Below are positions 17,651 through 42,489 of a stretch of DNA of 43,988 nucleotides, piece after piece. The notes beneath the pieces were generated by a model, which worked only from the letters and a program-made list of their open reading frames with translations, had not been told where the DNA came from and ran no database searches. Each line of letters opens with the position of its first letter. The first letter of the stretch is position 1. This stretch comes from Haliea sp. (GTDB taxonomy: Bacteria; Pseudomonadota; Gammaproteobacteria; Pseudomonadales; Halieaceae). The translations under genes were made by a program, and so were the position numbers. The stretch spans positions 1 to 43,988 of the forward strand of contig JBFHFJ010000001.1 in the NCBI GenBank assembly GCA_041583655.1, in the 5' to 3' direction.

Positions 17651-17670
17651 GAAGGGGTACCGGAAATAAA

Positions 17671-17686
17671 TCAACACAAGTGTTGA
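17671..17686. promoter_or_regulatory. Palindromic operator copy 3, upstream of the acyl-CoA dehydrogenase operon
   Basis: TCAACACAAGTGTTGA. Confidence 0.8.
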
Positions 17687-17750
17687 ATCGCCCGCCGGGC
17701 TGACGTATATTCGGTGGCGATGAGGCAACAACGAATTTGAGAAGAGGCAC

Positions 17751-18932: not shown

Positions 18933-18962
18933 TTGCAGGGCATCGCGGAGTACGAGGATGTC

Positions 18963-20483: not shown

Positions 20484-21325
20484 TGACCTCGCCGGACAAA
20501 AAGGCAGATAGCCTGCCGGAAATCCATCCTCTGGCCGCTCTGCTGCGTGGCTTTGCCGTGGACTTCATCACCGGGCATGACATAAGCGTGGCGGAGCGGA
20601 TCATGGCGCCCGGCTATTGCCTGAGTATTGGTGGTCATCTCCTGAACGGTCGTGACGCAGAATACCTGCCCCCGACTGCGGCCCAGATTCACCAGTTTCC
20701 GGGACTTTGTGTGACGGTGCACGATGTCATCTACGGCGACAATGCGCTGGCCATGAAGTTTACCGAGCACGGCGCATCCTCCAGGGACGGTGGGCGCGCT
20801 GCCACCTGGCGCGGAATTACGCTGTTTCGCACCGACGGTAAACAACTGCGGCAGGGCTGGGCCGAGGAAGACTATTTCGCGCGCAAGCGCCAGTTGTCGT
20901 CCGGTAGCTGTGATGCGGTGGATCCGCCCCATCCGGCTCCGTGGGATGTGCTGCACGCCCCATCGAACCCGGAAACCGAATCGGTTGCGCGACGCTGGTT
21001 GTCGTCCGTGGGGGCAGTAACGCAGCCCGCGGGTACGGACTGGTTGTCGCAAGTAGACGATTCAGACCCCCAGCCTGCGGCGCTGTTTGACATCCACGCC
21101 ACGACCATAGATGAACTGTTTTCAGCCGGTGATCGGGCGGCCTTCCACCTGCAGCATGAGGCTGTCTACAAGGGTGGCTTTCCCGACCTGGATCCGGGCC
21201 TTGCCGGCAAGCCGGTTATTGTCCGCGCTGCCGGCATGCTGACCGTCCGGTCTGGCGTGGTGGTGGACGCCAGCGTTACCACGGATAGGCTCGGTCTGTA
21301 TCGAGCACTCAGGTTTGGCCAGTGA
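20480..21325 (+). CDS. Tandem SnoaL/NTF2-like (ester cyclase-like) domain protein
   Basis: FPGLCVTVHDVIYGDNALAMKFTEHG...WRGITLFR and a second IDELFSAGDRAAFH...VRAAGML repeat; ATGA overlap with the ligase stop. Confidence 0.72.
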   Translation: MMTSPDKKADSLPEIHPLAALLRGFAVDFITGHDISVAERIMAPGYCLSIGGHLLNGRDAEYLPPTAAQIHQFPGLCVTVHDVIYGDNALAMKFTEHGASSRDGGRAATWRGITLFRTDGKQLRQGWAEEDYFARKRQLSSGSCDAVDPPHPAPWDVLHAPSNPETESVARRWLSSVGAVTQPAGTDWLSQVDDSDPQPAALFDIHATTIDELFSAGDRAAFHLQHEAVYKGGFPDLDPGLAGKPVIVRAAGMLTVRSGVVVDASVTTDRLGLYRALRFGQ

Positions 21326-21377
21326 ATGCTGGGTAATTCCAGCCTCTTAGAACGTACGCTTGCTCAGGTAAACGGCG

Positions 21378-22652
21378 ATGAAAATAAACGATAAAGCAAG
21401 TCCGCGCATTTTTTATGGCTGGTGGCTGATGCTGGTCTGCCTGCTGATCCAGGCCGTGGGCTTCGGAACCTCTTTGTACCTCTACAGCGTGATGATTGGC
21501 GCGATCGGAGCCGAGTTCGAGGGCAGCCGGTTTGTGATGATGATGGGCGTGTCCGGCATGCTGCTCCTGGTTGGCCTCATGTCTCCCAAGATCGGTTCAC
21601 TGCTTGACCGCTATCCGGTCAAGCGGGTTTTGATCTCCGGCGGAATCGTGATGGGCTCCGGATTCATACTGATGTCTTTCTCGGGCAATATCTACCACGT
21701 GGTGTTCTACTATGCCCTGTTTATCGCGCTGGGCATGACCATTCTCAGCCCCTTGTCCTGCTCACTGTTGCTGACGCGCTGGTTTGTGCGTCACCGCGGA
21801 CTGGCACTGGGAATCTCTGCATTGGGCACCCAGTTTGGAGGCCTGGTCTTTCCACCTGTGATTGCGGCGATTGCTGCCGCCCATGACTGGCGGGTGGCGG
21901 CTACCTGCCTGGGCCTGTTCATTATCGCTTTCGTGCCCGCGCTGGCCTGGTTCTTCGTTCACGATCATCCGCGGGACAAGGGCCTGTATCCTGACGGTGC
22001 GGAGAGTGACGCTAATGCGTCCACGACAAATTCCGAACCCGCCGTCACGCCCAATTTTTCCATGCGGGCGATCTATACCAGCCCCAATTTCATCATTGTG
22101 GTGGCCATCGTTACATTTATGTCGATGATCTATTCGGGCTTGCTGTCGAACATTTCGCTGATCGCGGTCGACAAGGGTGAAACCCTGCAGCGAGGCGCAT
22201 TCCTGGTATCCCTGATGTCGCTGGTCGGGATGATATCCAGTCCCCTGCTGGGAAGGCTCAGCGACATACTCAGCGTACGCAAGACGCTTGTGGTGATGAG
22301 CGCGAGTGCGCTGCTCGCGCTGGTGCTTTTCCACCAGGCACAGGGTTACGCTGTGCTGGTCGCGGCGGTGGTTTGTTTCGGCTTCTTCGGTGGCGCGGTA
22401 GTGCCGGTGTGGTCGGCAGCCCTTAGTCGCCTTTACGACAGTCGAATTTACGGTCGCGTCTTGGGTGCATCCAGCGCCGTGGTTTACTCGCTTGCTGCCC
22501 TGTCTGCACCCACCATTGGCTTGCTGTATGACCTCACCCAGAGTTATCAGATTACTTTTGTCATCCTCGCCAGTGTTGCGGTTCTGCTGATGTTCGCCAT
22601 TGCAAAAATCACGCCCCAGCAGCATCTGATGGCTGAAGAGACCAGGAACTGA
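21378..22652 (+). CDS. MFS transporter (OFA/MCT-like)
   Basis: FYGW start, GSLLDRYPVK and GRLSD motif A copies, RWFVRHRGLALGI, about 12 TM. Confidence 0.9.
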   Translation: MKINDKASPRIFYGWWLMLVCLLIQAVGFGTSLYLYSVMIGAIGAEFEGSRFVMMMGVSGMLLLVGLMSPKIGSLLDRYPVKRVLISGGIVMGSGFILMSFSGNIYHVVFYYALFIALGMTILSPLSCSLLLTRWFVRHRGLALGISALGTQFGGLVFPPVIAAIAAAHDWRVAATCLGLFIIAFVPALAWFFVHDHPRDKGLYPDGAESDANASTTNSEPAVTPNFSMRAIYTSPNFIIVVAIVTFMSMIYSGLLSNISLIAVDKGETLQRGAFLVSLMSLVGMISSPLLGRLSDILSVRKTLVVMSASALLALVLFHQAQGYAVLVAAVVCFGFFGGAVVPVWSAALSRLYDSRIYGRVLGASSAVVYSLAALSAPTIGLLYDLTQSYQITFVILASVAVLLMFAIAKITPQQHLMAEETRN

Positions 22653-22714: not shown

Positions 22715-22769
22715 TCAATACATGTGTTGACAAAATAGAATGGCGGCGTAATATCAACTGTAGTGTTGA
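22715..22769 (+). promoter_or_regulatory. Sigma70-type promoter with tandem operators (copies 4 and 5) upstream of TonB receptor 1
   Basis: TCAATACATGTGTTGA (22715-22730) overlaps TTGACA; 16-bp spacer; TAATAT; then TCAACTGTAGTGTTGA (22754-22769). Confidence 0.8.
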
Positions 22770-22861: not shown

Positions 22862-25213
22862 ATGGCCAGATATCTTACCGGCGTAGCGTCCGCCCTTGCG
22901 ATGGTGACGGCAGTACAATCCTCAGCAGCTCTCGCCCAGAGCTCCCAGCCACGCTCGGGAGCGATGCTCGAGGAAATCCTCGTGACCGCTCAGCGGCGCG
23001 CCGAAACCATGGAGCGCACGCCGATCTCGATCGCGGTGCTCAGCAGTGATGCGCTGCGGGATCAGGCAATCGTTTCCGAGCTGGATCTGCAGACAGCGCT
23101 GCCGGGCGTTACGGTCAAGGCGGGCCAGAGCGCCAACCAGCTCAACTACTCGATCCGCGGTCAGACCGTTGACTCCTTCAGCAGCTCGCGCCCCAGCGTG
23201 CTGCCCTACTTCAACGAGGTGCAAGTCGGTGGCCAGGCCTCGACCGCCTTCTACGACCTGGGTTCGGTCCAGGTGCTGAAGGGGCCGCAGGGTACTCTGT
23301 TCGGGCGCAACTCGACTGGCGGCGCGGTGTTGTTCACCAGCGCCAAGCCGGAAGAGGAGTTCGGTGGCTATGTCAGCGCCTGGGGTGGCAACTACGATGA
23401 GTTCAAGGCCGAGGGCGCAATAAACATTCCGCTGGTGGAGGACAAGGCGCTGCTGCGGGTGGCGGGCTTTTTTCAGCGCCGCGAAGGTTACCAGTACAAC
23501 ATATTCGATGACAGCCGCCTCGGTGATGTGCGCCGCAAGAATGTGCGGGTCAGCCTCACCCTGCGTCCTACCGAAAACATCAGCAACGAACTGGTGCTGG
23601 ATTTCGCCAAGTCCGACGGCAACAACCTGACCAGCGTCGCCTACAATACCTTTGGTATCGGCGAGGGCAATCCATTCGTGCCCACCCCGTTCCTGTACTC
23701 GCCCCTGGTGGATGCCGCCTTTGGACCTGGTGCCTGGGATGCCTTTCTCGCGGCACACCCGGGTGCCGATCCGGAGGGCTGGGTAGCCTCTGTCGAGAAG
23801 CAGCAGCAGCGCGGACCCTTCAGGGTCAACGTGGATGCACCCAACTTCCACGAAGGTCAAAACCTGGTGGTTTCCAACATCACCACATTCGATCTCGGCA
23901 ACGGTATGCAGGTCCGCAACATTCTTGGTTATACCGACCTGGAGTTCCAGAATGCAGGCGAGTTTGACGGCACGCCCTTCCCGTCCGACGACAACGGCAC
24001 GGAGGGTCGAGGCGGCACACTGAAGCAGTTCTCCGAGGAAATACAGCTGCTGGGCGAGGCCTTCGACGGACAGCTTTCCTATGTCACGGGTATTTTCTAC
24101 TCCGACGAAGAAGAGGATGTGCGTTCGCTGAGCGTGCTGTTCGACCTGCTGCCCACGGCTCCGCCAGTGCGGCAAATCAATGACGGTGTGACCGAGAACG
24201 AGACGATTGCGGCCTACGCCCAGGGCACCATGGACCTGGGCGGTGTGGTCGGCATCGAGGGCCTGTCAGCTACTCTTGGCGGCCGCTACTCCTCGGAGGA
24301 TGTCAGCTTCTTCCGCTTCCCCGACGACACCTTCATTGCCAACCCGCCGCCTCCCGGTGCGGTGTTCCTGAACCCGCTGGAGGACACCTTCGACCAGGCC
24401 AGCTGGACAGTCGGTCTTGAGCAGCAGGTAAACGAGGAATTGCTGCTCTACGTCAAGTCGCGGCGAAGCTTCCGCAGCGGTGGTTTCAACTACTTTGCCC
24501 CGCCGCTGCCTGGCTTCGGCAACCAGGGCGGTGCGGAATACGAGGAAGAGACTGCCACTGACGTCGAGCTGGGCGCCAAGTATCTTGGCAGTATCGGCGA
24601 CATGCCGCTGCGCTTGAACTTCGCGGCCTATCGTATGTGGATCGAGGAAATCCAGCGCTCCAACTACGTGGAAGTGTTTGGCGCCCTGGCGGGCATCACG
24701 GTGAATGTCCCGGAGGCGGAAATCTCCGGCTTCGAACTGGACGCGATCATCAGCCCCGTCGAGTGGCTGTCGCTGGGTGCCGCGGTGAGCTATACCGACG
24801 CTGAATTTACCGACAACCTGGTGTCTGTGCTGGGCAATCCGGAGGTGGCCTTCGGCCCCTATCCGGACACCCCGGAATGGTCTGGTTCCGTCTTCGCCGA
24901 CATTCGAGTGCCGGTGGGCGACCGTTACACCGCCTCGCTGCGCTCGGAGGTATACGACCAGAGTGAGACCTTCTTCAGCTCTACCAACAATACCCTCAAT
25001 CCGGGTACTCGCATCCCCGGCTACACGGTGGCGAACTTCAGGTTGACTCTGGAGGATGAGTCGGCGGGCTGGGCGGTGTCTGCCCACGTCAAGAATGCCT
25101 TTGACGAAACCTACTACGTTGGCGGTATCGGTTTCGCCAGCCTGTTCGCGGTCAATACGGTGATCCCGGGAGCCCCGCGTACCTACATGCTTGAAGCCCG
25201 GTACAGCTTCTGA
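22862..25213 (+). CDS. TonB-dependent outer-membrane receptor 1
   Basis: Signal peptide, TonB box LEEILVTAQRR, plug motif VLKGPQGTLFGRNSTGGAV, C-terminal PRTYMLEARYSF. Confidence 0.95.
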   Translation: MARYLTGVASALAMVTAVQSSAALAQSSQPRSGAMLEEILVTAQRRAETMERTPISIAVLSSDALRDQAIVSELDLQTALPGVTVKAGQSANQLNYSIRGQTVDSFSSSRPSVLPYFNEVQVGGQASTAFYDLGSVQVLKGPQGTLFGRNSTGGAVLFTSAKPEEEFGGYVSAWGGNYDEFKAEGAINIPLVEDKALLRVAGFFQRREGYQYNIFDDSRLGDVRRKNVRVSLTLRPTENISNELVLDFAKSDGNNLTSVAYNTFGIGEGNPFVPTPFLYSPLVDAAFGPGAWDAFLAAHPGADPEGWVASVEKQQQRGPFRVNVDAPNFHEGQNLVVSNITTFDLGNGMQVRNILGYTDLEFQNAGEFDGTPFPSDDNGTEGRGGTLKQFSEEIQLLGEAFDGQLSYVTGIFYSDEEEDVRSLSVLFDLLPTAPPVRQINDGVTENETIAAYAQGTMDLGGVVGIEGLSATLGGRYSSEDVSFFRFPDDTFIANPPPPGAVFLNPLEDTFDQASWTVGLEQQVNEELLLYVKSRRSFRSGGFNYFAPPLPGFGNQGGAEYEEETATDVELGAKYLGSIGDMPLRLNFAAYRMWIEEIQRSNYVEVFGALAGITVNVPEAEISGFELDAIISPVEWLSLGAAVSYTDAEFTDNLVSVLGNPEVAFGPYPDTPEWSGSVFADIRVPVGDRYTASLRSEVYDQSETFFSSTNNTLNPGTRIPGYTVANFRLTLEDESAGWAVSAHVKNAFDETYYVGGIGFASLFAVNTVIPGAPRTYMLEARYSF

Positions 25214-25905
25214 TGGCGCGCGAAGGCGGTGCGGTGAAGCTCATCAACAACGGACCCAGCCCCTATGGGCGGAAAGTGATGATTGCCCTGCGCGAGAAGA
25301 ATATCCCGTTCGAGATTGAATGGGATATTCCCTGGCACAAGGACACCATGGTCCATCACTACAATCCCCTGCAGCAGCTGCCGATTCTGTTGGGGGAAAA
25401 CGGGGAAGTGGTCTACGAATCTTCGTATATCCTCGCCTGGCTGGAGCGGCACTATCCGCTGCCGCCGCTCGCACCCTCGGATCCCGATGGATTGCTGCAG
25501 CTGCGCCTGTTCCAGGTCCTCAGTGTCGGCATCATGGATGCGATTACCCGGATCAACTTCGAGATGGCGCGCTCACAGGAGAACCAGAGCAGGGAGTGGA
25601 TGAACCGGCAGGAGCGCAAGATCGTCGGCGCTGTGGCGGAAATTGGCCGGCTCCTTGGCAACAATGAGTTCGCCCTCGGCGCGGAATTTGGCCATGCTGA
25701 TCTGGAGGTTGGTACCGTGCTCGGCCACTTCGATTTCATGGCGAGAAACATTCCCGCCCTGAACGAACTGCTCGACAAGAGGGTGCGCTGGCGACAGCAG
25801 CACCCAAACCTTGCAGCCTATATTGACCGCCTTGAACAGCGACCCTCGTTCCTGGCATCAGCGCCCCACATGGTAAAAATGGACTTCCAGGCAGTCGTTG
25901 CCTGA
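25213..25905 (+). CDS. Glutathione S-transferase family protein
   Basis: SPYGRKV, NPLQQLPIL, YESSYILAWLE, N-capping FGHADL, RPSF. Alternative GTG start at 25234. Confidence 0.88.
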   Translation: MAREGGAVKLINNGPSPYGRKVMIALREKNIPFEIEWDIPWHKDTMVHHYNPLQQLPILLGENGEVVYESSYILAWLERHYPLPPLAPSDPDGLLQLRLFQVLSVGIMDAITRINFEMARSQENQSREWMNRQERKIVGAVAEIGRLLGNNEFALGAEFGHADLEVGTVLGHFDFMARNIPALNELLDKRVRWRQQHPNLAAYIDRLEQRPSFLASAPHMVKMDFQAVVA

Positions 25906-25939: not shown

Positions 25940-26707
25940 ATGCGCATGCCTTCCTTTCGGCTCGACGGCAAGGTTGTCATTGTCACTGGCGCCGCCAGTG
26001 GTATTGGCGCAGGGATCGCCCGCGGACTGGCCCATTTCGGTGCGGCGGTGGGCTGCATGGACGTCGCCGCTGACGGGCTCGCGCAAACGGTAGCGGACAT
26101 TGAGGACAGCGGCGGCCGCGCAGTGGCGATCAGCGCCGACGTGCGCGAAGAGGGTTCGCTGACGGCCGCGGTGGAGCGGATCGAGAAGGAGCTGGGTCCG
26201 CTTGCCGGGGCCCTGAACTGCGCTGGCGTCCACGACAGCATCGCCGCTGAATCCATGACCTTGCAGCAGTGGCAGCGTGTAGTGGATGTCAACCTGTCAG
26301 GCATTTTCCTCAGCTGTCAGGCTGAAGGCCGGGCACTGATCCGCAATGGTGGCGGCAGCATCGTCAACATCGGCTCCATTTCGGCGCACATCGCCAACCG
26401 CGGCCTGAAGCAGGTGCATTACAACGCGGCCAAGGCCGGGGTTGCCCATTTTTCCAGATCCCTTGCGCTGGAATGGGCGGAGCATGGCATTCGGGTCAAT
26501 GTAGTCAGCCCCGGCTATACCGCGACGCCGATGGCCAAGAGCCCGGAGGTGTGGCCGCTGGTCGAGCACCTGTTGGATGACATACCGCTGGCGCGCATGG
26601 CGGAAGTTGAGGAACTGATCGGCCCCGCAGTATTTTTGCTGAGTGAAGCCAGTTCCTACTGCACCGGGGTGGACCTGCTGGTGGATGGGGGTGCGGTATG
26701 TTGGTAA
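25940..26707 (+). CDS. Short-chain dehydrogenase/reductase
   Basis: TGAASGIG, YNAAK, IRVNVVSPG, VDGG. Confidence 0.93.
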   Translation: MRMPSFRLDGKVVIVTGAASGIGAGIARGLAHFGAAVGCMDVAADGLAQTVADIEDSGGRAVAISADVREEGSLTAAVERIEKELGPLAGALNCAGVHDSIAAESMTLQQWQRVVDVNLSGIFLSCQAEGRALIRNGGGSIVNIGSISAHIANRGLKQVHYNAAKAGVAHFSRSLALEWAEHGIRVNVVSPGYTATPMAKSPEVWPLVEHLLDDIPLARMAEVEELIGPAVFLLSEASSYCTGVDLLVDGGAVCW

Positions 26708-28596
26708 GAAAGAGGTTCGCGAACATGTTCAAAGCTGCATTGTACCCCGGCCCCATGATCCCGCTGCTAATGGCAGTCGTGCTATGGTCACCGGGGTCGC
26801 TGGCACTGGAGGTCTCAGGACAGGTTGTCGATGTGGCTGGCAAGCCGTTGCCCCACGTCAGGCTGCGATTTGCCAGTGACCAGTCAGTGCCCTATTCGAC
26901 CAGCGTGTTCTCCGGTGCCGATGGCACTTTTGTGGCCAGTATCCCGGATCGGGATCTGGCCGAGGTTGAGCTGGACGTATTCCGGATCGGCTGGCAGGCG
27001 ACCGGGGTTGAAACTACTTCCCGGGCAGACCGCGTAACGCTGACGGTGACGCTGCAGTCGATTGAAAACGTTGCGGATCAGGTCCCTTCATCGGCCTGGC
27101 TGCAGGGAGATCCCGGTTCGACTGCCTACCATATGACAACGCTGCAGTGCTCCAATTGTCACCAGCTCGGGGCCGAGCGCGTACGCAAATTCTCTGCCAA
27201 ACTGGCGGCACTGCCTGCGGAGCAGCGCTCCGAGGCCTGGCTGGAAAGATCAGTAGAGGACCTGTCCTACGACGGCAAGCGGGGAGCGTGGCGCGAAAAT
27301 GAAAGCACCCCTGCGAAGGAAAAAATAGAAGCCTGGGAAAGCATGGTGCAGTACATGCGCCTCGTCACTCTGCGCCTGGGTGAACAGAACAAGCTGCGCT
27401 GGGGACTGGAGGAGGGCAGCGATTTCTACAATGCGCTTCTGCAGCCCGAAACCAGCCTGTTTGTCCCCAGGGATATGGAAATCGTGGTGCCGAACCTGGC
27501 GCGCAACTTCCCGGTGGAATTCGACACCTTCACCGACTTCAATGATGTCGAGCGGCTTGGCGCCTATGGGTCTGGTGAGGGTACGATTATTGAGGAATAT
27601 GTGCTGCCCACCTTTGGTTGGACGCGAGAGATCGCTATCGCCCCCGGATCGGACCGGGTCTGGTTCCTGGAGACCGATAAGGATCGTCTGGGCGCCCTGA
27701 ATCCTGTCGATGGTTCGGTGGAATGGTTTCCTGTGCCCGGCAAGGGCCAGCAGGGCCCGCACACCATGAATGCCGATGCCGAGGGCAACCTCTGGGTGGC
27801 GCTTGAGGACAGTTTCTACATAGGACGCTTCAACACTGCGACCAGCGAGTGGCGCATGTACCCGCCCCCCGCCGGCAAGGCCTTTGGTGTGACCCATGAT
27901 TTCGCCTACAACTCTGACCGGCACGTTCAGCCCGACTCGGGCGGACGGATCTGGATTACCGATCTCGGCATGAATGAGCTCTGGGGCGTGAATGTCGAAT
28001 CCGGAGAGATCACGACCTACACCATGCCCATCGCAGTGGGTGAATCCAATTTCCACTCACTGTTGTACGGCGCGGCCTACGACCGGGAACGGGATCGGGT
28101 GTGGTGGGCACAGTTACACGGCTACGTGGGCAGCTTCGACCCGCGCAACAACCTGGTCGAACGCATCGTTCCGTTTGATCGCGGAGCCGGCCCCCGGCGC
28201 CTGGCAATACAGGACGATGGCATTCTCTGGATACCGCTGTACGGCTCCAGTGAGCTGGTCAAGTTCGACAGCATCGCCGGTATCGAACTGGCGCGCTATA
28301 GCATACCGGACCCCGGCGCCGGTCCCTATGGCGTCACCCTGGACAAGAAGCGCAACGCGATCTGGGCCGCCACGTCCAACTCCGACCGGATCTATCGCTT
28401 CAATATCGCCACCGAGACCTGGCAGCACTATCCCATGCCCCGTAAAGAAACCTTTATCAGAATGATCGAAGTGGATCCCGTCAGCGGCGATGTCTGGACT
28501 ACCTATGCGAGCCTGCCCGTCGGCAAGCGCGACCCGGCCGTCTTTGGCTCGGAGAGCGCCAACAACATGATTGTAAGACTGCGTCCGGGAGATTGA
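26698..28596 (+). CDS. Exported Ig-like (carboxypeptidase-regulatory-like) + monohaem c + Vgb-lyase-like beta-propeller protein, function unknown
   Basis: Signal peptide ending SLA-LE; VSGQVVDVAGKPL beta-sandwich start; CSNCH; repeated D..G.(L/I/V)W propeller blades (DAEGNLWV, DSGGRIWI, DDGILWI, SGDVWT). The real start may be ATG 26725. Confidence 0.8.
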   Translation: MLVRKRFANMFKAALYPGPMIPLLMAVVLWSPGSLALEVSGQVVDVAGKPLPHVRLRFASDQSVPYSTSVFSGADGTFVASIPDRDLAEVELDVFRIGWQATGVETTSRADRVTLTVTLQSIENVADQVPSSAWLQGDPGSTAYHMTTLQCSNCHQLGAERVRKFSAKLAALPAEQRSEAWLERSVEDLSYDGKRGAWRENESTPAKEKIEAWESMVQYMRLVTLRLGEQNKLRWGLEEGSDFYNALLQPETSLFVPRDMEIVVPNLARNFPVEFDTFTDFNDVERLGAYGSGEGTIIEEYVLPTFGWTREIAIAPGSDRVWFLETDKDRLGALNPVDGSVEWFPVPGKGQQGPHTMNADAEGNLWVALEDSFYIGRFNTATSEWRMYPPPAGKAFGVTHDFAYNSDRHVQPDSGGRIWITDLGMNELWGVNVESGEITTYTMPIAVGESNFHSLLYGAAYDRERDRVWWAQLHGYVGSFDPRNNLVERIVPFDRGAGPRRLAIQDDGILWIPLYGSSELVKFDSIAGIELARYSIPDPGAGPYGVTLDKKRNAIWAATSNSDRIYRFNIATETWQHYPMPRKETFIRMIEVDPVSGDVWTTYASLPVGKRDPAVFGSESANNMIVRLRPGD

Positions 28597-28602
28597 GTAG
28601 AG

Positions 28603-29343
28603 ATGGCAGGAAGACTGGCAGGCAAGGTTGCGGTGGTTACCGGTGCGGGCGGCGCCATGGGGGCTGCCATTGTCAGGCGCTTCTGTGCCGAGGGAGCCCG
28701 TGTGGTGGCCGTGGATGTCAATGGTAAGCAGGAGGCGCTGGCGAGCGAGCTGGGTGACCACTGCGTGGGGTTTGCTGCAGATGTTGCCAGCGCCCCGGAG
28801 GTGCAGGCCATGCTGCAGTTGGCCCTGGATCGCTTCGGCCGGCTGGACGTGCTGTGCAACAACGCCGCCATCCAGGGGTATCTGCGTCTGACCGGCGACT
28901 ACGAAGTGGAAGAGTTTGATCGTGTCATGGCAGTCAATGCCCGCGGTGTCTTCCTCGGTATGCGCTACGCTATACCCATTATGCTGGAGCAGGGTGGTGG
29001 CGCTATTGTCAACACTGCCTCGATGGCGGCGAAAGTCGCCTTCCCCCAACTGGTGGCCTATTCTGCCTCCAAGGGCGCGGTGATGATGATGACCAAGAAT
29101 GCTGCCGTTGAGTACGCGGACCGAGGTATCCGGGTCAATTGCTTTTGCCCGGGATCCATTGATACCGCCATGCTTAATGGCATGCCCCGGGAGTATATTG
29201 ATGCGGTAATCGCGGCCAATCCGGTGAAGAGGGTGGGGCGTCCGGATGAAATTGCGGACCTGGCGCTGTTTCTTGCCAGTGATGAATCCTCCTTCATCAC
29301 CGGCACCGACATCGTGATTGATGGTGGCTATACCGCGTTGTAG
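28603..29343 (+). CDS. Short-chain dehydrogenase/reductase
   Basis: TGAGGAMG, NNAA, YSASK, IRVNCFCPG, IDGG. Confidence 0.93.
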   Translation: MAGRLAGKVAVVTGAGGAMGAAIVRRFCAEGARVVAVDVNGKQEALASELGDHCVGFAADVASAPEVQAMLQLALDRFGRLDVLCNNAAIQGYLRLTGDYEVEEFDRVMAVNARGVFLGMRYAIPIMLEQGGGAIVNTASMAAKVAFPQLVAYSASKGAVMMMTKNAAVEYADRGIRVNCFCPGSIDTAMLNGMPREYIDAVIAANPVKRVGRPDEIADLALFLASDESSFITGTDIVIDGGYTAL

Positions 29344-29419
29344 CGAGTTTCAACATCAGGTCGCTGAAGGGAGCATGAGTTGCCTGTGCGGCGAGCCTGA
29401 CACCTTGTGGAGTATTGTC

Positions 29420-31558
29420 ATGAGATTGAAAATGAACTTCAGGACGCTCAGGAGATGTGTGTTTGTCGTATTGGTGCCTGCGCTGGTGTCGGGCTGCAGC
29501 CGTGAATCTTCGGAGGAGGCAACCGCCACGGTAGCAGTGCCCCAGCCGTCGACTTCAGCTGCCGCCCCGATTAAGCAGGGTGTGATAAGAGGGCAGGTGC
29601 TCAATACCGGGGGCTCCCCGGAGGCCGGAGTCTGGGTAATTGCAGAGACCGGAGACCTGCCCACCAACTACCGCAAGATTGTCGTCACCAACGACGAGGG
29701 CCGCTTCGTGCTGCCGGAGATGCCCGAGGGGTCCTACAGGGTCTGGGTGCGTGGTTACGGCCTGGCGGATTCGGACAGGATCGACGCCCAGCTGGGAGAT
29801 CAGCTAGAACTGAGGGTCAGGGCCGCAACCGACCCCGCGGAGGCCGCAGCCATCTACCCCGCCAATTACTGGTTGGCGCTGATGGATCCGCCCTCGGAAG
29901 ACGCGGTCAAGACGGCGGAGTTTCCCTACCCTTCCGCGGAGGATTGGCTGGGCCAGATGAAGCTCAACTGCACCATTTGTCACCAGCCAGGGAGCATTCA
30001 TGTCAGGTCCCTGGCGTCCTCTCCCGCAGCGATAGAGCATGGATTGAAGAAAGTGGGTGAAATGAATTCGCTCGCCGCGCAACTCAATCACGATGTGCTG
30101 CTGGATGTCATGGAAAGCTGGGGCAAGAAAATCGCTGCCGGCCTGACTCCCGAGGCGCCCCCAAGGCCACAGGGCCTGGAGCGCAATCTGGTCATTACCC
30201 AGTGGGAGTACGGTGGCAAATACACCTATGCCCATGACGTGATTTCCACTGACAAGCGCGACCCGACACTGTACCCGGACGGCAAGATCTATGGCCTGGA
30301 TATAGGTAACGACTGGCTGCTGATTCTGGACCCAACCACGCACAGCGTGGAGGAAGTCAAATTACCGGATTATGAACATGCCCGGCCCTGGTGTGAGCAG
30401 ACCTACAAGCCGCTTGGTGGTACTGAAGAAATCAATGTCGGTGCCCGCTTGCTCGGCTGCCCGGAAGAGGGTGTCGTCTCGTCGCATCCGGGTGCCTACC
30501 AGAACCCGGCCAATGCCCATAACCCGATGCTGGACGCCAACGGCAGGCTGTGGATGACCGTGCAGGTGCGCCGTGAATGGGGCGAGGATATGCCGGACTT
30601 CTGCAACCGGGATCCACTGATTGCCGGCGAGTACCACCACCGCCAGCTCGGCTACCATGACATCGCCAGCGGCGAGTTCGTGCCTGTGGATACCTGTTTC
30701 GGCACCCACCACCTGCAGTTTGACGACAAGGGCGTGCTCTGGGTCAATGGCGACAGTAACGTTGTCGGCTGGCTCGACACCAAAGTATTCGACCCGCAGA
30801 ACCCCGAGACCCTGGAAGCCGCCATGGGCTGGTCTGAAAGCAAGGTCGACACCACCGGCGACGGCGAGGCCGATACGCCGATCATCGGCTTCCGCTACAG
30901 CATTATCCCCAACCCCGTCAGGAACGATGTGTGGATAGCCATTCCTCCCGGTTCCTACGGTAAACATCCCACATACGGCGACCGGGGTTACATTGAGCGC
31001 TTTGATCCCGCAACCGGGACCCACGAGGTCTACAAGCCACCGGCTCCCGCATCGGGTGCCCGCGGTATCGACGTCGATACGAAAGGCAACGTGTGGGCGG
31101 GCATGGCGGGCAGCGGCCACCTGGCGCGTTTCGACCGCACCAAGTGCAAGCAGACCTGGGGTGCCGGCGACCAGTGCCCTGAGGGCTGGACCCTGTGGGA
31201 AACCCCCGGGCCACGGTTCAAGGGCGCTGAGGGCAAGGGCGCCGATTTCCACTACTACACCTGGGTGGATCAGTTCGACACGCTGGGCTTGGGCAAGGAT
31301 ACGGTGATTCTCAATGGCACGAACTCCGACTCCCTGATTGCATTCAGGCCGGATACGGAAGAGTTTACGGTGATCCGTATTCCCTATCCCATGGTTACGT
31401 TCACTCGAGGTGTCGACGGCCGCATTGACGACCCGGCGGCGGGGTGGAAAGGGCGCGGGCTCTGGATGACCAACGGTCTTGATCCTGTGTTCATGTCCGA
31501 GGTGCCACGCACCTATGTCGGCCATATCCAGCTGCGGCCCGACCCCCTCGCTGACTAA
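29420..31558 (+). CDS. Lipoprotein with Ig-like + monohaem c + His-rich beta-propeller architecture, function unknown
   Basis: ATG 29420 follows GGAG; lipobox LVSG-C; PEAGVWVIAET.DLPT...IVVT...GRFVLPEMP..Y.VWVRGYGL domain; CTICH; blades DANGRLWM, DDKGVLWV, DTKGNVWA. Confidence 0.82.
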   Translation: MRLKMNFRTLRRCVFVVLVPALVSGCSRESSEEATATVAVPQPSTSAAAPIKQGVIRGQVLNTGGSPEAGVWVIAETGDLPTNYRKIVVTNDEGRFVLPEMPEGSYRVWVRGYGLADSDRIDAQLGDQLELRVRAATDPAEAAAIYPANYWLALMDPPSEDAVKTAEFPYPSAEDWLGQMKLNCTICHQPGSIHVRSLASSPAAIEHGLKKVGEMNSLAAQLNHDVLLDVMESWGKKIAAGLTPEAPPRPQGLERNLVITQWEYGGKYTYAHDVISTDKRDPTLYPDGKIYGLDIGNDWLLILDPTTHSVEEVKLPDYEHARPWCEQTYKPLGGTEEINVGARLLGCPEEGVVSSHPGAYQNPANAHNPMLDANGRLWMTVQVRREWGEDMPDFCNRDPLIAGEYHHRQLGYHDIASGEFVPVDTCFGTHHLQFDDKGVLWVNGDSNVVGWLDTKVFDPQNPETLEAAMGWSESKVDTTGDGEADTPIIGFRYSIIPNPVRNDVWIAIPPGSYGKHPTYGDRGYIERFDPATGTHEVYKPPAPASGARGIDVDTKGNVWAGMAGSGHLARFDRTKCKQTWGAGDQCPEGWTLWETPGPRFKGAEGKGADFHYYTWVDQFDTLGLGKDTVILNGTNSDSLIAFRPDTEEFTVIRIPYPMVTFTRGVDGRIDDPAAGWKGRGLWMTNGLDPVFMSEVPRTYVGHIQLRPDPLAD

Positions 31559-31701: not shown

Positions 31702-31756
31702 TCAACACATGTATTGACAAAACGGAGAGGGAATGTATTATCAACTATAGTGTTGA
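31702..31756 (+). promoter_or_regulatory. Sigma70-type promoter with tandem operators (copies 6 and 7) upstream of TonB receptor 2
   Basis: TCAACACATGTATTGA (31702-31717) overlaps TTGACA; 16-bp spacer; TATTAT; then TCAACTATAGTGTTGA (31741-31756). Confidence 0.8.
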
Positions 31757-31888: not shown

Positions 31889-34129
31889 ATGAACAACCCT
31901 AATGCAATACGACACGAACCCCGCAGCTTTTTAAAGTCACTGCTGGTTGCCTCGGTATCCGCTGCGGTGCTGGTGCCGTGCCTGGCCGCGGCGCAGGGGC
32001 GCCCCAATGCGCTACTGGAAGAAGTCATGGTGACAGCGCAGAAGAAGTCGGCAGCCGAAGCTTCCCAGGATGTGCCGATTGCGATCTCTGCCTACTCAGG
32101 CGACAAGGTCGAGGCCATGTTCGCAGTGAATCTGGTGGATATTGGCACGACCGCACCCAATGTACACCTTGCTGAGCAGGGCACCGCGCCACACACCGGC
32201 AATTTCATCATTCGCGGCATGGGTACAGCAGGCCAGAGTATACCCTCGTCGGATCCCGCTGTTGGCGTGGTCCAGGACGGCATGCCCTTTGGTCTGATCT
32301 ACGGTGTGGTCACAGACCTGTTTGATATTGAATCCATCGAGATCCTGCGCGGCCCCCAGGGTACCTTGTTTGGTCGCAACGTTACCGGGGGCGCAGTGAT
32401 CATTCGCACCACGCGTCCCACAGAGGAGTTCGAGGGCAAGGTCAAGGGGGTTATCGGTTCCCACGGCCAAAAGGAAATCAGCACTGTCCTAACCGGCCCG
32501 CTCGCCGATCGCTGGTCAGGCAAGCTTGCCGTTCTTGCCAAGGATCGCGACGGCCTGTGGGACAACGTGACCCTGGGTGGCGAACATGGTGAAGAGGAAT
32601 CCCTGATTGTTCGACCCGCACTCAAGTACACCGGTGACAACTATGACCTCACGCTTTTGACCGAGTACGCCAAGATTGAAGGCGATGGCATGGCCCCGCG
32701 GAACTTCTTCATCTTCGGGGAGGAAATTGACCCCTGGGCCGACAATTCCACTTCCACCGACACCGAAGGTGCGATTGATATCGACTGGTTCAACATTGTT
32801 CTCGAGCACAATCTGGACCTCGCCGGCGGCACGCTGACGACCAACGTCAGCTATCGGGATTTCGAGCAGAAGTTCTGGGGTGATATTGATGGCGCTCCTG
32901 GCTTCAATCGCTTTGAGTTCGCCGAAGGAACGGGGCTGTTGCAGGAACAGGTGGCGTTTGAAACACGCTGGGCTGGTGACCTCAGTGATCGCCTGAACAT
33001 GACGGTCGGCGTTAACCTGATGGACCAGGAATACACCTACCGCGAACGTCGCCTGGTGGTTGACCTGCTGGAACAGCCGGCTGAGTCGACGATCGAACAC
33101 GCTACTGCCGGTCTGTTTGCCCAGGCTGAGTACCGCCTGACGGACAGCCTGTACCTGACGCTGGGTGGTCGCTATTCCTACGAGAAGAAAGATGCTGCTA
33201 TTGGCGTTATCGGCGACCCACAGGGGGTGGGCACCTGCTCCGTGGTGATAGGCGAGATTCCCGCTGCACGCACCGTAGACTGGGGTGATTGCCGGCAGGT
33301 CTTCAACGACGACGAGAGCTGGGGTAACTTTACCCCGAAAATTGGCCTGACCTGGGACGTCAACGAGCAGGTCATGGCCTACACCAGCTATACCCGCGGC
33401 TTCCGCAGTGGGGGCTACAACGTGCGCTTTGCCGACTCCAGTCTTGTAAACACGCCGGACAATCCCAGGTCTACCCCTGGGCCTTATGATGAAGAGGTCG
33501 TCGACGCCTACGAGGTGGGAGTCAAGTCAGAGCTGGCCAGCGGCAGGGTGCGCATGAATGTCGCGCTTTTCTATAACGAATACGATGACCTCCAGCGTTC
33601 AGCCAACAACCAGTCCGGGGTGCAGCAAATATTCAATGCTGCAAGTTCGACCACGCAGGGCTTCGAGTTCGACATCGTTGCGGCGATCACCGATAACGTA
33701 ACCCTGGAGTTCGCACACGGCTATACCGACGCCGAGTATGATGAGGCAGCCTACCTGGAGTCTGCTCGCGGGCTTCCCGCCAGCAGTTTCAAGCTGCAGA
33801 TGGTGCCGGAGAACACGACCAGCGCAGCACTCACCTTTGATCACAGTATCGGCGATGCGGGCTACCTCACCTGGCGCGGTTCCTATTCCTACATGGACGA
33901 AGTGGCAAGCGATGATTTCAACTTCCTTATCGTCCCCGATTACGAGCTTTACAATGCCAGCGTCTCGTATACCAACGCCGCGGAAAACCTCAAGGTGTCG
34001 CTGTTTGGCCGCAATCTGAAGGACGAGGTCTACTCCCACTTTGGTTTCGACAACACCTCTATCGGTTCCCGCACGGTGTGGTTGGCTCCCCCGAGAACCT
34101 ACGGACTGGAGGTTGTCTACAACTTCTGA
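31889..34129 (+). CDS. TonB-dependent outer-membrane receptor 2
   Basis: Signal peptide, LEEVMVTAQKK, IEILRGPQGTLFGRNVTGGAV, C-terminal PRTYGLEVVYNF. Confidence 0.95.
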   Translation: MNNPNAIRHEPRSFLKSLLVASVSAAVLVPCLAAAQGRPNALLEEVMVTAQKKSAAEASQDVPIAISAYSGDKVEAMFAVNLVDIGTTAPNVHLAEQGTAPHTGNFIIRGMGTAGQSIPSSDPAVGVVQDGMPFGLIYGVVTDLFDIESIEILRGPQGTLFGRNVTGGAVIIRTTRPTEEFEGKVKGVIGSHGQKEISTVLTGPLADRWSGKLAVLAKDRDGLWDNVTLGGEHGEEESLIVRPALKYTGDNYDLTLLTEYAKIEGDGMAPRNFFIFGEEIDPWADNSTSTDTEGAIDIDWFNIVLEHNLDLAGGTLTTNVSYRDFEQKFWGDIDGAPGFNRFEFAEGTGLLQEQVAFETRWAGDLSDRLNMTVGVNLMDQEYTYRERRLVVDLLEQPAESTIEHATAGLFAQAEYRLTDSLYLTLGGRYSYEKKDAAIGVIGDPQGVGTCSVVIGEIPAARTVDWGDCRQVFNDDESWGNFTPKIGLTWDVNEQVMAYTSYTRGFRSGGYNVRFADSSLVNTPDNPRSTPGPYDEEVVDAYEVGVKSELASGRVRMNVALFYNEYDDLQRSANNQSGVQQIFNAASSTTQGFEFDIVAAITDNVTLEFAHGYTDAEYDEAAYLESARGLPASSFKLQMVPENTTSAALTFDHSIGDAGYLTWRGSYSYMDEVASDDFNFLIVPDYELYNASVSYTNAAENLKVSLFGRNLKDEVYSHFGFDNTSIGSRTVWLAPPRTYGLEVVYNF

Positions 34130-34223: not shown

Positions 34224-35408
34224 ATGAGAGAAGCCGTCATTGTTTCCACCGCCCGTACACCCATAGGTCGCGCCTTTCGGGGGGGCCTCAACAACATCAA
34301 ATCACCCACCCTTGCGGGTCACGCGATTGCTCACGCAGTGGCCAGGGCCGGTATCGACGGTGACCGAGTGGAAGACGTTATTCTCGGTACAGTGCTCGGG
34401 GCTGGTACCGCCGGTCTGAATGTTGCCCGTAATGCGGCACTTGCCGCCGGGCTGCCGGTAACCGCCGGGGCGCAAACCATAGACCGTCAATGCTCTTCCG
34501 GGCTGATGGCAGTTGCCACAGCGGCCAGGCAAATTATGGTCGAGGGTATGGATGTGGTGGTTGCCGGGGGCCAGGATAATATCTCGGCCCTGCAGAACCA
34601 GTACCTCAAGTGGGTGCAGGAGGAAGCGGACGAGAATGTCGTAAAAATGCAGGAGCACGCCTACATGGGCATGCTACTGACGGCCGAACACGTGGCCAGA
34701 AAATATGGCATCAGCCGCGATGCCCAGGATGCCTACGCATTGCAGTCGCAGCAGCGTACTGCGGCGGCTCAGGCCGCTGGTCGTCTGGATGCTGAAATTG
34801 TGCCGATCACCGCCCAGCAGAGACTGGTCGACAAGGAAACCAAGGCGGTGTCCTACCGCGAGGTTACCCTGGAGAAAGACGAAGGTAATCGTGCCGATAC
34901 CACCCTGGAAAGTCTGCAGAGTCTGGCGCCAGTCATCGAGGGCGGCTGTATCACGGCGGGTAACGCCAGTCAGCTGTCGGACGGCGCGTCGGCCTGTGTG
35001 TTGGTAGAGCGCAAGCTTGCCGAGCAACAGGGACTGCAGCCATTAGGGCTGTACCGCGGCATGACCGTGGTGGGCAATGCGCCGGAGGAAATGGGTATCG
35101 GGCCAGTGTACGCAATCCCCAAGCTCCTGAAGCAGCACGGTCTGGGTGTTGGGGATATCGGACTCTGGGAGCTGAATGAAGCGTTTGCGGTGCAGGCACT
35201 CTACTGCCGCGATACCCTTGGCATTGATCCTGAAATCTACAACGTCAACGGTGGTGGCATTTCCATCGGTCATCCTTACGGTATGACCGGTTCGCGGCTG
35301 GTGGGGCACGCACTTATTGAAGGCAAGCGTCGAGGTGCCCGCTATGTGGTGGTCACGATGTGCGTTGGCGGCGGTATGGGTGCAGCCGGCTTGTTCGAAG
35401 TTCTGTAG
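34224..35408 (+). CDS. Acetyl-CoA C-acyltransferase (canonical thiolase)
   Basis: RQCSSG, NEAF, GHPYG and MCVGGG catalytic motifs intact. Confidence 0.95.
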
Positions 35409-35416
35409 CAGACATA

Positions 35417-35444
35417 CCGGGCCACTAGTTCATTAGTGGCCCGG
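35417..35444. terminator. Inverted repeat between the convergent thiolase and BVMO genes
   Basis: CCGGGCCACTA-gttcat-TAGTGGCCCGG. Confidence 0.65.
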
Positions 35445-35464
35445 GCCTCGGGTCGATGCTCCAG

Positions 35465-37087: not shown

Positions 37088-37166
37088 CGGATTCTCCTGT
37101 TGGTGTTAGCGGTCCATTGGCGGTCGCGGCTGCGGTTGGATTACCCCGAGCGCACTGGTCAAATTA

Positions 37167-37204
37167 TCAACAACAACGTTGCATCAAGTCAACATATGTG
37201 TTGA
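37167..37204. promoter_or_regulatory. Operator copy 8 plus a degenerate copy in the divergent BVMO/MaoC promoter
   Basis: TCAACATATGTGTTGA (37189-37204, identical to copy 1) and TCAACAACAACGTTGC (37167-37182). Confidence 0.78.
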
Positions 37205-37291
37205 AATATTTGAGCCTGGGGTTTGGCCTGAGCCATGATTGCAGCTCACTGCGACAATCGCGGGGCGGCAACAGCGGAGGAATATGACAGC

Positions 37292-37735: not shown

Positions 37736-37789
37736 CAGCGTGGAAAGGCGACCGCAGGGTGAAACGCCGCGACAGGAAGGAGCAGGGCA

Positions 37790-38326: not shown

Positions 38327-38338
38327 GAGCCAGCCAAG

Positions 38339-42472: not shown

Positions 42473-42489
42473 CCCGCCCCGGTCTTCCC

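What the first reader, a model, noticed from the sequence alone, without database searches (positions are those of the whole stretch)
26698..31558. Pair of exported Ig-like / monohaem-c / beta-propeller proteins: candidate new periplasmic redox enzyme family
Seen: two divergent proteins share one layout: export signal (Sec-type or lipoprotein), beta-sandwich, a single haem motif with the same tail (CSNCHQLG, CTICHQPG), then a Vgb-like propeller with several His (GPHTM, VTHDF, NFHS; YAHDV, NAHNP, YHHRQ, GTHHLQF). Each follows an SDR gene, and both lie between two TonB receptors. Established: cytochrome c plus propeller is the design of cytochrome cd1 and quinohaemoprotein dehydrogenases, and His-lined propellers bind Cu in N2O reductase and thiocyanate dehydrogenase; no PQQ or d1 signatures were recognised here. 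Inference: metal- or cofactor-dependent enzymes making the first attack on the imported substrate, perhaps as a heterodimer. Automatic annotation would probably miss the haem.
Basis: partly seen in the sequence, partly recalled or inferred. Interest (0 to 1): 0.85.

Follow-up and report, generated by a model that had tools for sequence, protein, structure and literature searches.

The report
Haem-propeller enzymes mislabelled as antibiotic lyases
Two exported proteins in a co-regulated gene cluster share an Ig-like, haem-c-motif, seven-bladed propeller design with a large unstudied bacterial family labelled 'streptogramin lyase', and they are likely periplasmic dehydrogenases whose second cofactor, probably a histidine-bound metal, is still unknown.

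Summary
Observation confirmed. A (26698-28596) and B (29420-31558) are full-length homologues (HH probability 99.5, 24% identity). Both are modelled as Ig-like domain, helical cytochrome c and seven-bladed propeller. CxxCH is kept in 114 of 115 A and 120 of 120 B homologues, with an invariant Met. The haem domain is closest to SorB and quinohaemoprotein amine dehydrogenase alpha, both electron relays. Across a large superfamily the propeller top carries a signature, [HD/RE]-H-H-Y-R-Y-R, unlike the Vgb site. No solved structure or searchable paper covers this architecture; this scan had not reported it elsewhere. New here: A and B belong to a conserved ~30 kb acyl-CoA/Baeyer-Villiger cluster marked by a palindromic operator (10 sites against 0.7 expected). 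Best reading: periplasmic dehydrogenases, His-bound metal (copper most likely) plus haem-c relay, acting first on a TonB-imported hydrophobic compound. The cofactor is unsettled. Copper-protein neighbours are patchy, the PCuAC-fold partner of A's sister clade lacks copper ligands, and other clades sit beside PQQ enzymes. An obligate heterodimer is unlikely: A lacks B in 8 of 10 draft genomes tested.

The parts
26698..28596 (+). Protein A, 632 aa: Sec-type signal (about 1-35), Ig-like domain, monohaem c domain, 7-bladed propeller
   Evidence: (pLDDT 90.6, pTM 0.90)
26803..27060 (+). A: Ig-like beta-sandwich (CarboxypepD_reg-like, residues about 36-121)
   Evidence: (E 2e-4, under cut-off), strands
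27148..27162 (+). A: haem c motif C151-S-N-C154-H155; the likely sixth ligand M220 lies at 27355-27357
   Evidence: C, C, H 114/114 aligned; M220 115/115; domain similarity to SorB and QHNDH alpha
27571..28593 (+). A: 7-bladed propeller; blade-top residues R310/E311, H355, H400, H453, Y457, R500/R501, Y544, R588
   Evidence: (Vgb 2z2n Z 31.5, rmsd 2.1, 290 aligned)
29420..31558 (+). Protein B, 712 aa from ATG 29420: lipoprotein-type signal (C26), Ig-like domain, monohaem c domain, 7-bladed propeller with insertions and six conserved extra Cys (likely disulfides)
   Evidence: (pLDDT 92.4, pTM 0.93)
29969..29983 (+). B: haem c motif C184-T-I-C187-H188; the likely sixth ligand M215 lies at 30062-30064
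   Evidence: 120/120; 60/60 in a wider set
30185..31537 (+). B: propeller; top-face residues H272/D273, H367, H406, H407, H430, H431, Y493, R548, H567, H611/Y612, R663
   Evidence: (Vgb Z 26.2, rmsd 2.3, 288 aligned)
28603..29343 (+). SDR2, cytoplasmic short-chain dehydrogenase; directly downstream of A in 24 of 30 orthologue loci with room
25940..26707 (+). SDR1; its stop overlaps A's start
25213..25905 (+). Glutathione S-transferase, present in 17 of 31 A-orthologue loci
22862..25213 (+). TonB-dependent receptor 1, first gene of the likely operon holding A and B; present in 20 of 31 A-orthologue loci
31889..34129 (+). TonB-dependent receptor 2, with its own promoter-like site and operators
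22715..22769 (.). Two TCAAC-N6-GTTGA operator-like palindromes overlapping a sigma-70-like promoter (22727-22754) upstream of the operon
31702..31756 (.). Two operator-like palindromes overlapping a promoter-like site (31714-31741) before TonB receptor 2
12991..13767 (+). TetR-family regulator (TetR_C_24) with a palindrome at 12932; the likely reader of the operator
   Evidence: binding inferred
13838..22652 (+). Upstream part of the regulon: flavin monooxygenase, enoyl-CoA hydratase, 3-hydroxyacyl-CoA dehydrogenase, acyl-CoA dehydrogenase, CoA ligase, SnoaL-like protein, MFS
34224..43371 (.). Downstream part of the regulon: thiolase, Baeyer-Villiger monooxygenase (35465-37087, minus), a MaoC-like protein plus a similar-sized neighbour with no Pfam hit, OB-fold/thiolase pair, CoA ligase, SDR3, cyclase-family hydrolase (42490-43371, minus)
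   Evidence: cyclase label from the L017 relative

Best explanation
A and B are two distant paralogues of one uncharacterised exported Ig/haem-c/seven-bladed-propeller superfamily and are likely separate periplasmic dehydrogenases that would oxidise a TonB-imported hydrophobic compound at a His-bound metal site (copper most likely) on the propeller top, passing electrons through their own haem c. Steps: (1) Sec export, then covalent haem attachment by the Ccm system (motif, variants and ccmF shown; loading inferred). (2) His/Met low-spin haem c as one-electron relay (Met conservation and SorB/QHNDH similarity shown; ligation inferred). (3) Substrate binds at the propeller mouth: two or three His on adjacent blades 1-3 hold the metal, while the Tyr/Arg half holds an anion (substrate carboxylate or haem propionates) and supplies acid-base groups (conservation and topological position shown; roles inferred). 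(4) Electrons leave to a soluble cytochrome c and the respiratory chain (small cytochrome c genes follow some relatives; inferred for A and B). (5) The product enters the cytoplasm, where SDR2, CoA ligases, beta-oxidation enzymes and Baeyer-Villiger monooxygenases of the same operator-marked regulon finish a branched or cyclic terpenoid- or steroid-like acid or ketone (gene content shown; substrate inferred). Odds: redox enzyme of some kind about 0.75, with a His-bound metal about 0.45, copper specifically about 0.3.
For: Full-length homology of A and B. CxxCH plus Met conserved (Met 92 of 94), with CX3CH/CX4CH variants in 7 relatives. Haem-domain profile best hits: SorB, E 4e-4, and QHNDH alpha, E 0.04. 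In 45 chosen diverse members H355 is in 45, H400 in 44, Y457 in 45, Y544 in 44, R588 in 41, and the blade-1 pair is HD in 31 or RE in 14. 77 of 94 representatives keep at least two His at blade tops 1-3. These residues sit at the start of the inner strand or in top-face loops of confident models. Class I cytochrome c genes directly follow relatives in L143, L153, L055, L057 and L148, and ccmF lies near a B relative in L111; the own genome has ccmF. Multicopper oxidase, cupredoxin or SCO genes occur in 11 of 79 B loci, against 0 of 57 A loci and 0 of 20 other loci. A PCuAC-fold gene directly follows the sister clade of A in 20 of 20 loci with downstream DNA. Precedent: TcDH, a seven-bladed three-copper propeller passing electrons to a cytochrome c (PMC9456337, passages).
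Against: No coordinates were available, so metal geometry and the haem-to-site distance were not measured. A has Arg at the first His position, and 15 of 94 representatives have Arg at H355. The 20 PCuAC-fold partners lack the canonical His/Met copper ligands seen in the genome's own PCuAC. The copper-protein neighbours fall in about two lineages and none is in the window's cluster. Two other clades lie directly beside PQQ-enzyme genes. A has no propeller Cys, so no galactose-oxidase-type Tyr-Cys cofactor. One haem and one metal leave the two-electron chemistry unexplained unless a Tyr radical, a second metal or a substrate radical takes part.
Confidence: 0.45

Rival explanations
1. The proteins are dehydrogenases whose Arg/Tyr ring holds a non-covalent anionic organic cofactor: scavenged PQQ (a new seven-bladed quinohaemoprotein type) or a second haem as in cd1/NirN. 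The two adjacent His would then act as acid-base residues.
For: Arg and Tyr are the most conserved top residues (R588 91, Y544 89, Y457 88, R501 87 of 94). Family members lie within the fetched stretch of PQQ-enzyme genes in 10 of 20 selected loci, mostly directly upstream. The genome holds several PQQ enzymes without a pqqC hit, as expected for scavengers. YncE ('PQQ-dependent catabolism-associated') is the second structural match for A (Z 28.0, rmsd 2.3, 297 aligned). That Arg residues bind PQQ and haem d1 carboxylates is recalled knowledge.
Against: No PQQ, GSDH or cytochrome d1 Pfam hit and no Trp-docking motif. pqqC is over cut-off in only 12 of 47 genomes tested and in 1 of 20 of the own family. 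The window's cluster has no PQQ enzyme, and the PQQ-adjacent clades are separate branches from A and B. The 20 loci were hand-picked from related genomes.
Confidence: 0.27
2. The propeller is a non-redox lyase, hydrolase or isomerase (a Zn site with His3, Tyr and Arg as in PAL, or a Vgb-like elimination, e.g. opening a lactone or epoxide), with the haem c acting as a Lewis acid or redox switch.
For: The closest folds are Vgb lyases. PAL is hit by the family profile (E 8e-11) and is a Zn propeller lyase (PMC6529398, passages). The cluster has flavin monooxygenases that could make esters or lactones, plus GST and SnoaL proteins.
Against: The Vgb site lies in blades 6-7 (PMC8916777, passages), where A has Tyr and Arg. 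An invariant CxxCH/Met relay-type domain and downstream cytochrome c genes are not needed by a lyase. Monooxygenase products would form in the cytoplasm, not the periplasm.
Confidence: 0.13
3. The proteins are non-catalytic: periplasmic electron-transfer adaptors or substrate-binding proteins whose Arg/Tyr face docks a partner such as a PQQ enzyme or the TonB receptor.
For: Direct coupling to haem-less PQQ enzymes in some clades. Arg/Tyr propeller tops do bind acidic peptides in other families (recalled).
Against: His and His-Asp/Arg-Glu pairs are conserved across about 25% identity. No other periplasmic redox enzyme is encoded in the window's regulon. Coupling to an NAD-type SDR in 24 of 30 loci fits a metabolic step.
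Confidence: 0.08
4. A and B form an obligate heterodimeric enzyme.
For: In 251 genomes of the own family, the strong A and B orthologues occur in the same 6 genomes. B lies within the fetched stretch in 13 of 31 A-orthologue loci.
Against: No strong B homologue in 8 of 10 draft genomes with A (completeness not given). The B family is far larger (at least 7837 clusters against about 115). In L006 and L007 a different paralogue takes the second place. A and B have separate operators in L083, L084 and L097.
Confidence: 0.07

Closest known systems
Thiocyanate dehydrogenase (TcDH) with its cytochrome c552 acceptor
   Same: Periplasmic seven-bladed propeller with the catalytic centre in the central tunnel, passing single electrons to a monohaem cytochrome c (PMC9456337, passages). 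B has eight conserved top-face His, including two HH pairs.
   Different: TcDH has no fused haem or Ig domain. No TcDH match appears among the listed sequence or fold hits (top 60 of 134, 40, 41). A has only three His. The gene context is organic catabolism.
Quinohaemoprotein amine dehydrogenase (QhpA/QhpB/QhpC)
   Same: Uses the same three module types: a W..xM-type haem domain (E 0.04), Ig-like domains and a seven-bladed propeller (architecture recalled).
   Different: Here one chain and one haem; no gamma peptide or radical-SAM maturase among the scanned cluster genes, so no CTQ source is evident.
Sulfite dehydrogenase SorAB, subunit SorB
   Same: Closest solved relative of the haem domain (2blf_B, E 4e-4); a monohaem relay next to a catalytic site.
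   Different: SorA is a molybdoenzyme; here the partner is a fused propeller and no Tat motif was found.
Cytochrome cd1 nitrite reductase / NirN
   Same: N-terminal cytochrome c plus a propeller with His, Tyr and Arg at the mouth (recalled).
   Different: Eight blades and haem d1 (recalled); no Cytochrom_D1 hit; the models have seven blades.
Virginiamycin B lyase (Vgb)
   Same: Best propeller match (Z 31.5 for A and 26.2 for B, about 290 residues aligned) and the source of the database names.
   Different: Cytoplasmic, single domain, no haem; Mg/His site in blades 6-7 is replaced by Tyr and Arg; NCBIfam 49 bits against a cut-off of 600.
[quoted passage not shown]
   Same: Propeller with a single Zn at the active site (PMC6529398, passages); its His3/Tyr/Arg set (recalled) resembles the family signature; profile hit E 8e-11.
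   Different: Six blades, non-redox, no haem.

Membership tests
c-type cytochromes | CxxCH in an exported helical domain, with maturation genes in the genome | tested here: met
c-type cytochromes | Haem covalently attached with His/Met ligation | not testable with these tools
   Met is conserved; needs spectroscopy
Virginiamycin B lyase | Whole-protein family score above the curated cut-off; single cytoplasmic propeller | tested here: not met
   NCBIfam 49 and 39.5 bits against 600 for A, no hit for B. Pfam Vgb_lyase does pass its cut-off for A (79.9 against 50), so the fold is shared. Extra signal, Ig and haem domains.
Virginiamycin B lyase | Catalytic His/Mg site in blades 6 and 7 | tested here: not met
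   Sequential register 257-596 against 2-294 puts Y544 and R588 at blades 6 and 7; site location from PMC8916777 passages; residue-level structural pairing was not printed
Cytochrome cd1 / NirN | Eight-bladed propeller with the Cytochrom_D1 domain | tested here: not met
   No Pfam or NCBIfam hit; about 290 residues align end to end with seven-bladed Vgb
PQQ quinohaemoproteins (type II ADH-like) | Eight-bladed PQQ domain with Trp-docking motifs | tested here: not met
PQQ quinohaemoproteins (type II ADH-like) | Binds PQQ | not testable with these tools
   Genomic evidence is mixed
Thiocyanate dehydrogenase / N2O reductase | Seven-bladed propeller with His lining the central site | tested here: met
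   By topology from secondary structure and conservation; distances not measured
Thiocyanate dehydrogenase / N2O reductase | Sequence or fold relationship to the family | tested here: inconclusive
   Not among the listed hits; the lists are dominated by other propellers and truncated
Thiocyanate dehydrogenase / N2O reductase | Bound copper cluster and a dedicated copper-delivery gene | tested here: inconclusive
   No copper chaperone in the window's cluster; PCuAC-fold partner of the sister clade lacks the ligands; copper proteins in 11 of 79 B loci
Quinohaemoprotein amine dehydrogenase | Dihaem alpha subunit, separate beta propeller, gamma peptide and radical-SAM maturase | tested here: not met
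   One haem motif per chain; no such partners among the cluster genes scanned
Copper-radical oxidases (galactose oxidase) | Tyr-Cys cross-link at the copper site | tested here: not met
   A has no Cys in the propeller; B has six, whose pairing was not determined

The most novel reading that the evidence does not exclude
A new class of single-chain haem-c/copper dehydrogenases with thousands of members across bacteria. A His-bound copper and a conserved tyrosine (possibly a radical) on a Vgb-type propeller perform oxygen-independent two-electron oxidation or hydroxylation of hydrophobic compounds in the periplasm and discharge through a fused haem c. The whole superfamily is hidden in databases as 'streptogramin lyase'. 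The operator found here gives a direct reporter route to the substrate.
Probability: 0.3. Interest if true: 0.9.

Novelty: new variant of a known kind. Interest (0 to 1): 0.72.

Why it matters
The superfamily is large (B-type at least 7837 clusters at 90% identity; 2479 representatives at 50% identity hit by the A profile at E up to 1e-10, a count that includes other propellers) and has no solved or, in the papers searched, described member. It is named after an antibiotic-resistance enzyme whose active site it does not keep. If it is a dehydrogenase class, it adds a cofactor architecture to periplasmic catabolism in marine and freshwater degraders of hydrophobic compounds, corrects a source of false resistance-like labels, and offers self-contained direct-electron-transfer catalysts. 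The conserved operator, the tight A-SDR2 coupling and a cultured carrier (Luminiphilus syltensis NOR5-1B, L034) make the substrate question directly testable.

Tried and rejected
Solved-structure sequence searches found only Vgb, designed propellers and generic repeats. Foldseek and VIA searches matched only the propeller; cd1, TcDH, N2OR, carotenoid oxygenase and galactose oxidase were not among the listed rows, which does not exclude them, and the haem and Ig domains were barely tested there. The ESM Atlas, searched with stored homologues P0117 and P0065, returned only hypothetical or Vgb/CarboxypepD-named clusters. I first read the PCuAC neighbour as strong copper evidence and downgraded it after the alignment. 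I first read the missing pqqC as excluding PQQ and dropped that when PQQ enzymes turned up in the same genome; the pqqC control rang in 0 of 14 control genomes, though the model did hit 12 of 47 test genomes. A phylum-wide search gave 12 of 401 genomes, only 4 with near full-length matches or frames; those loci were not analysed. Literature: searches gave 0 papers; some searches gave listings with no paper on this architecture by title and abstract start. The original Vgb and TcDH papers were not held; subscription journals and supplements were not seen and may hold a characterised member. No RNA holder was listed. Earlier scan notes: none by sequence or place, none, and two on a different six-bladed family. 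The script is headed as a coevolution test but ran none. The substrate could not be named.
Full report
Observation. The stretch holds two long + strand ORFs separated by an SDR gene: A at 26698-28596 (632 aa) and B ending at 31558. B most likely starts at the ATG at 29420 (712 aa, the length of its nearest homologues), which gives a lipobox ending in Cys26. Pfam gives A a Vgb_lyase hit above cut-off and a weak Ig-like hit, and B only the Ig-like hit; neither gets a cytochrome family. NCBIfam scores A at 49 bits against a Vgb cut-off of 600 and B not at all. A contains two Cys, both in CxxCH; 0 of 20000 shuffles of A and 64 of 20000 of B produce the motif.

Families. A has 116 hits among 7994 candidates scored; B has 7837 among 7999, of which 120 were listed. 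CxxCH is in 114 of 115 A homologues examined (P0116, the weakest hit, was left out; the miss is an N-terminal fragment) and 120 of 120 B homologues. M220 of A (115/115) and M215 of B (120/120) are invariant. Pairwise BLAST of A and B is weak, but the profiles align over 500 columns (probability 99.5, E 2e-22, 24% identity). A search of 1.84 billion representatives with the A profile gave 2479 hits at E up to 1e-10. Of the 149 new ones listed, 97 are 500-740 aa; 94 of these have CxxCH and the other three have CX3CH or CX4CH. Atlas clusters for homologues are unnamed or named Vgb/carboxypeptidase-regulatory and include Pseudomonadota, Acidobacteriota and Myxococcota.

Structure. AlphaFold2 models are confident (A pLDDT 90.6, pTM 0.90; B 92.4, 0.93) and show a beta-sandwich, a helical domain holding CxxCH and the Met, and a propeller. 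Fold searches match only the propeller, best to seven-bladed Vgb (A Z 31.5, rmsd 2.1, 290 aligned; B Z 26.2, rmsd 2.3, 288 aligned). A profile of the haem domain from 35 members hits SorB of sulfite dehydrogenase (E 4e-4) and the alpha subunit of quinohaemoprotein amine dehydrogenase (E 0.04 and 0.19) ahead of other cytochromes; 16 of 35 members hit Cytochrome_CBB3 weakly. That these two are relay haems next to a catalytic cofactor is established knowledge, recalled.

The propeller mouth. By the secondary structure of the models, A's R310, H355, H400, Y457, R500/R501, Y544 and R588 each lie at the start of the inner strand of one of the seven blades. The profile alignment pairs them with B's H272, H367, H430, Y493, R548, Y612 and R663. 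B adds H406, H407, H431, H567 and H611 in top-face positions, and A adds H453. In 94 representatives the counts are H or R at 310 (62, 27), H355 63, H400 77, Y457 88, R500 82, R501 87, Y544 89, R588 91 and H453 7; 77 of 94 keep two or more His on blades 1-3 (an earlier alignment to the narrower model gave lower His counts). In 45 members that I chose for known gene context, H355 is in 45, H400 in 44, Y457 in 45, Y544 in 44 and R588 in 41, and blade 1 is HD in 31 or RE in 14. About 20% (A) and 27% (B) of all columns are as conserved within the close families, so within-family invariance alone is weak; the cross-family signature is the stronger evidence. Convergence is inferred from topology; I could not measure distances. 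Vgb binds substrate and Mg in blades 6 and 7 (PMC8916777, passages), where A has Tyr and Arg, so the database name is a fold label only.

Gene context. Of 57 genome loci for A and 79 metagenome loci for B (best 80 of 523), 31 hold an A orthologue at 58% identity or more. SDR2 follows A directly in 24 of 30 with room. TonB receptor 1 is present in 20 of the 31, GST in 17, B in 13, and the monooxygenase BVMO2 and CoA ligase 2 in 11 each, in rearranged orders across Halieaceae, Steroidobacteraceae, Sterolibacteriaceae, Woeseiaceae, Porticoccaceae and others. A palindrome TCAAC-N6-GTTGA occurs 10 times in the window with up to one mismatch (0.71 expected; 0 of 100 shuffles reach 10). Seven of the genome's 10 exact copies lie here, and there are 53 in 483 kb of orthologue loci against 2 in 1.39 Mb of other loci. 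Copies overlap promoter-like sites before both TonB receptors (that scan found 7 promoter-like sites against 6.4 by chance, so the promoters alone are weak) and stand directly before A or B in several lineages. The cluster from 12991 to 43371 is therefore likely one TetR regulon. BVMO2 is closest to phenylacetone and steroid monooxygenases and the OB/thiolase pair to benzoylsuccinyl-CoA thiolase and SCP2-type thiolases. This points to a branched or cyclic acid or ketone; I cannot name it.

Heterodimer. In 251 genomes of the own family, strong A and B orthologues occur in the same six. Outside it, 8 of 10 draft genomes with A have no strong B match (completeness not reported). L006 and L007 carry a different paralogue from another branch in the regulon. 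Two separate reactions fit better; binding could not be modelled.

Cofactor evidence. For electron transfer: class I cytochrome c genes directly follow relatives in L143, L153, L055 and L057, another cytochrome c gene follows in L148, and ccmF lies near a B relative in L111; the own genome has ccmF. For copper: multicopper oxidase, cupredoxin or SCO genes occur in 11 of 79 B loci against 0 of 77 other loci, but in about two lineages. A's sister clade (51-55% identity, same His) is followed by a PCuAC-fold gene in 20 of 20 loci with downstream DNA and preceded by a Rieske oxygenase. Against copper: those 20 proteins lack the His/Met ligands present in the genome's own PCuAC and instead keep an RFH(S/A)P motif. 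For PQQ: distant members occur in 107 of 251 family genomes, and 10 of 20 loci I picked hold PQQ-enzyme genes, mostly directly downstream. The own genome has several PQQ enzymes and no pqqC hit (82% complete). Against PQQ: no PQQ signature in A or B, pqqC over cut-off in 12 of 47 genomes, and the PQQ-adjacent clades branch apart from A and B (midpoint-rooted FastTree on 45 sequences). The absence of a Tat motif in 235 homologues argues for cofactors loaded outside the cytoplasm: haem c plus a metal or PQQ.

Mechanism. I commit to periplasmic dehydrogenases with a His-bound metal, most likely copper, and a fused His/Met haem c relay (0.45; any redox enzyme about 0.75). The working analogy is TcDH, a seven-bladed copper propeller that passes single electrons to a cytochrome c (PMC9456337, passages), here with the cytochrome fused. 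Shown: architecture, conservation, top-face position by topology, regulon signal, gene partners. Inferred: haem loading and ligation, metal, reaction, substrate. Rivals: an Arg/Tyr-bound PQQ or second haem (0.27), a PAL- or Vgb-like lyase (0.13; PAL from PMC6529398 passages, and profile hit), a non-catalytic adaptor (0.08), and an obligate heterodimer (0.07).

Novelty. No solved full-length relative was found. Ten literature searches gave four empty results and six listings without a paper on this architecture, judged from titles and abstract starts. I read passages only of PMC9456337, PMC8916777, PMC13578688 and PMC6529398. Subscription journals and supplements were not searched. Earlier notes of this scan show nothing on this family; two notes concern a six-bladed CxxCH propeller of another kind. 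It works like known propeller dehydrogenases with cytochrome relays but fails membership of each tested family, so I class it as a new variant of a known kind, with a real chance of a new cofactor class.

Noticed in passing
window 12932, 13886, 17671, 22715, 22754, 31702, 31741, 37167, 37189, 43323: Operator-like palindrome TCAAC-N6-GTTGA marks the whole cluster and its orthologues; likely the site of the TetR at 12991-13767. The copy at 13886 lies inside the listed monooxygenase ORF, so its true start is probably near 13985.
   Followed up: yes
L015:11716-12270 and 19 other loci: PCuAC-fold exported protein without the canonical copper ligands, with a conserved RFH(S/A)P motif and C-terminal helix, directly after A's sister clade; a candidate small subunit or His donor.
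   Followed up: partly
L045:8234-9920 and similar loci: A small unannotated protein plus Rieske oxygenase alpha subunit precede the sister clade, often with a MalT-like regulator.
   Followed up: partly
L137-L140, L142, L145, L146, L151, L155: A widespread clade of the same superfamily lies directly upstream of PQQ-enzyme genes, often near P450 genes, in a family where pqqC was found in 1 of 20 genomes tested; suggests PQQ scavenging.
   Followed up: partly
L007:521-2188, L046, L047, L052, P0238, P0255, P0259: CX3CH and CX4CH haem-motif variants within the superfamily.
   Followed up: partly
L143:8811-11357 (minus): An 849-aa fusion of ferredoxin/FAD/NAD reductase with a second flavoprotein-like domain directly upstream of a family member that is followed by a small cytochrome c.
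   Followed up: no
L111, L115, L117, L120, L121, L125, L128: B relatives in a two-component-regulated operon followed by an unannotated ~300-aa exported protein, and in some loci a multicopper oxidase, SCO or ccmF.
   Followed up: partly
L047, L050, L052: Distant A relatives lie beside DUF1302/DUF1329 uptake genes, in L050 with an XylR-type regulator.
   Followed up: no
window 3109-6098: Dihaem CCP/MauG-family gene followed by a beta-helix (NosD-like) gene; outside the operator-marked cluster.
   Followed up: no
window 9012-12866: Overlapping long ORFs on both strands (1055 aa plus, 964 aa minus); the plus one has no Pfam hit and the minus one was not scanned.
   Followed up: no
L012, L016: Records titled Klebsiella pneumoniae carry A homologues in clusters like those of environmental Gammaproteobacteria; the titles look like mislabels.
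   Followed up: no
P0005: An 883-aa protein joining an A homologue to an SDR domain; a real fusion or an assembly or gene-calling artefact.
   Followed up: no
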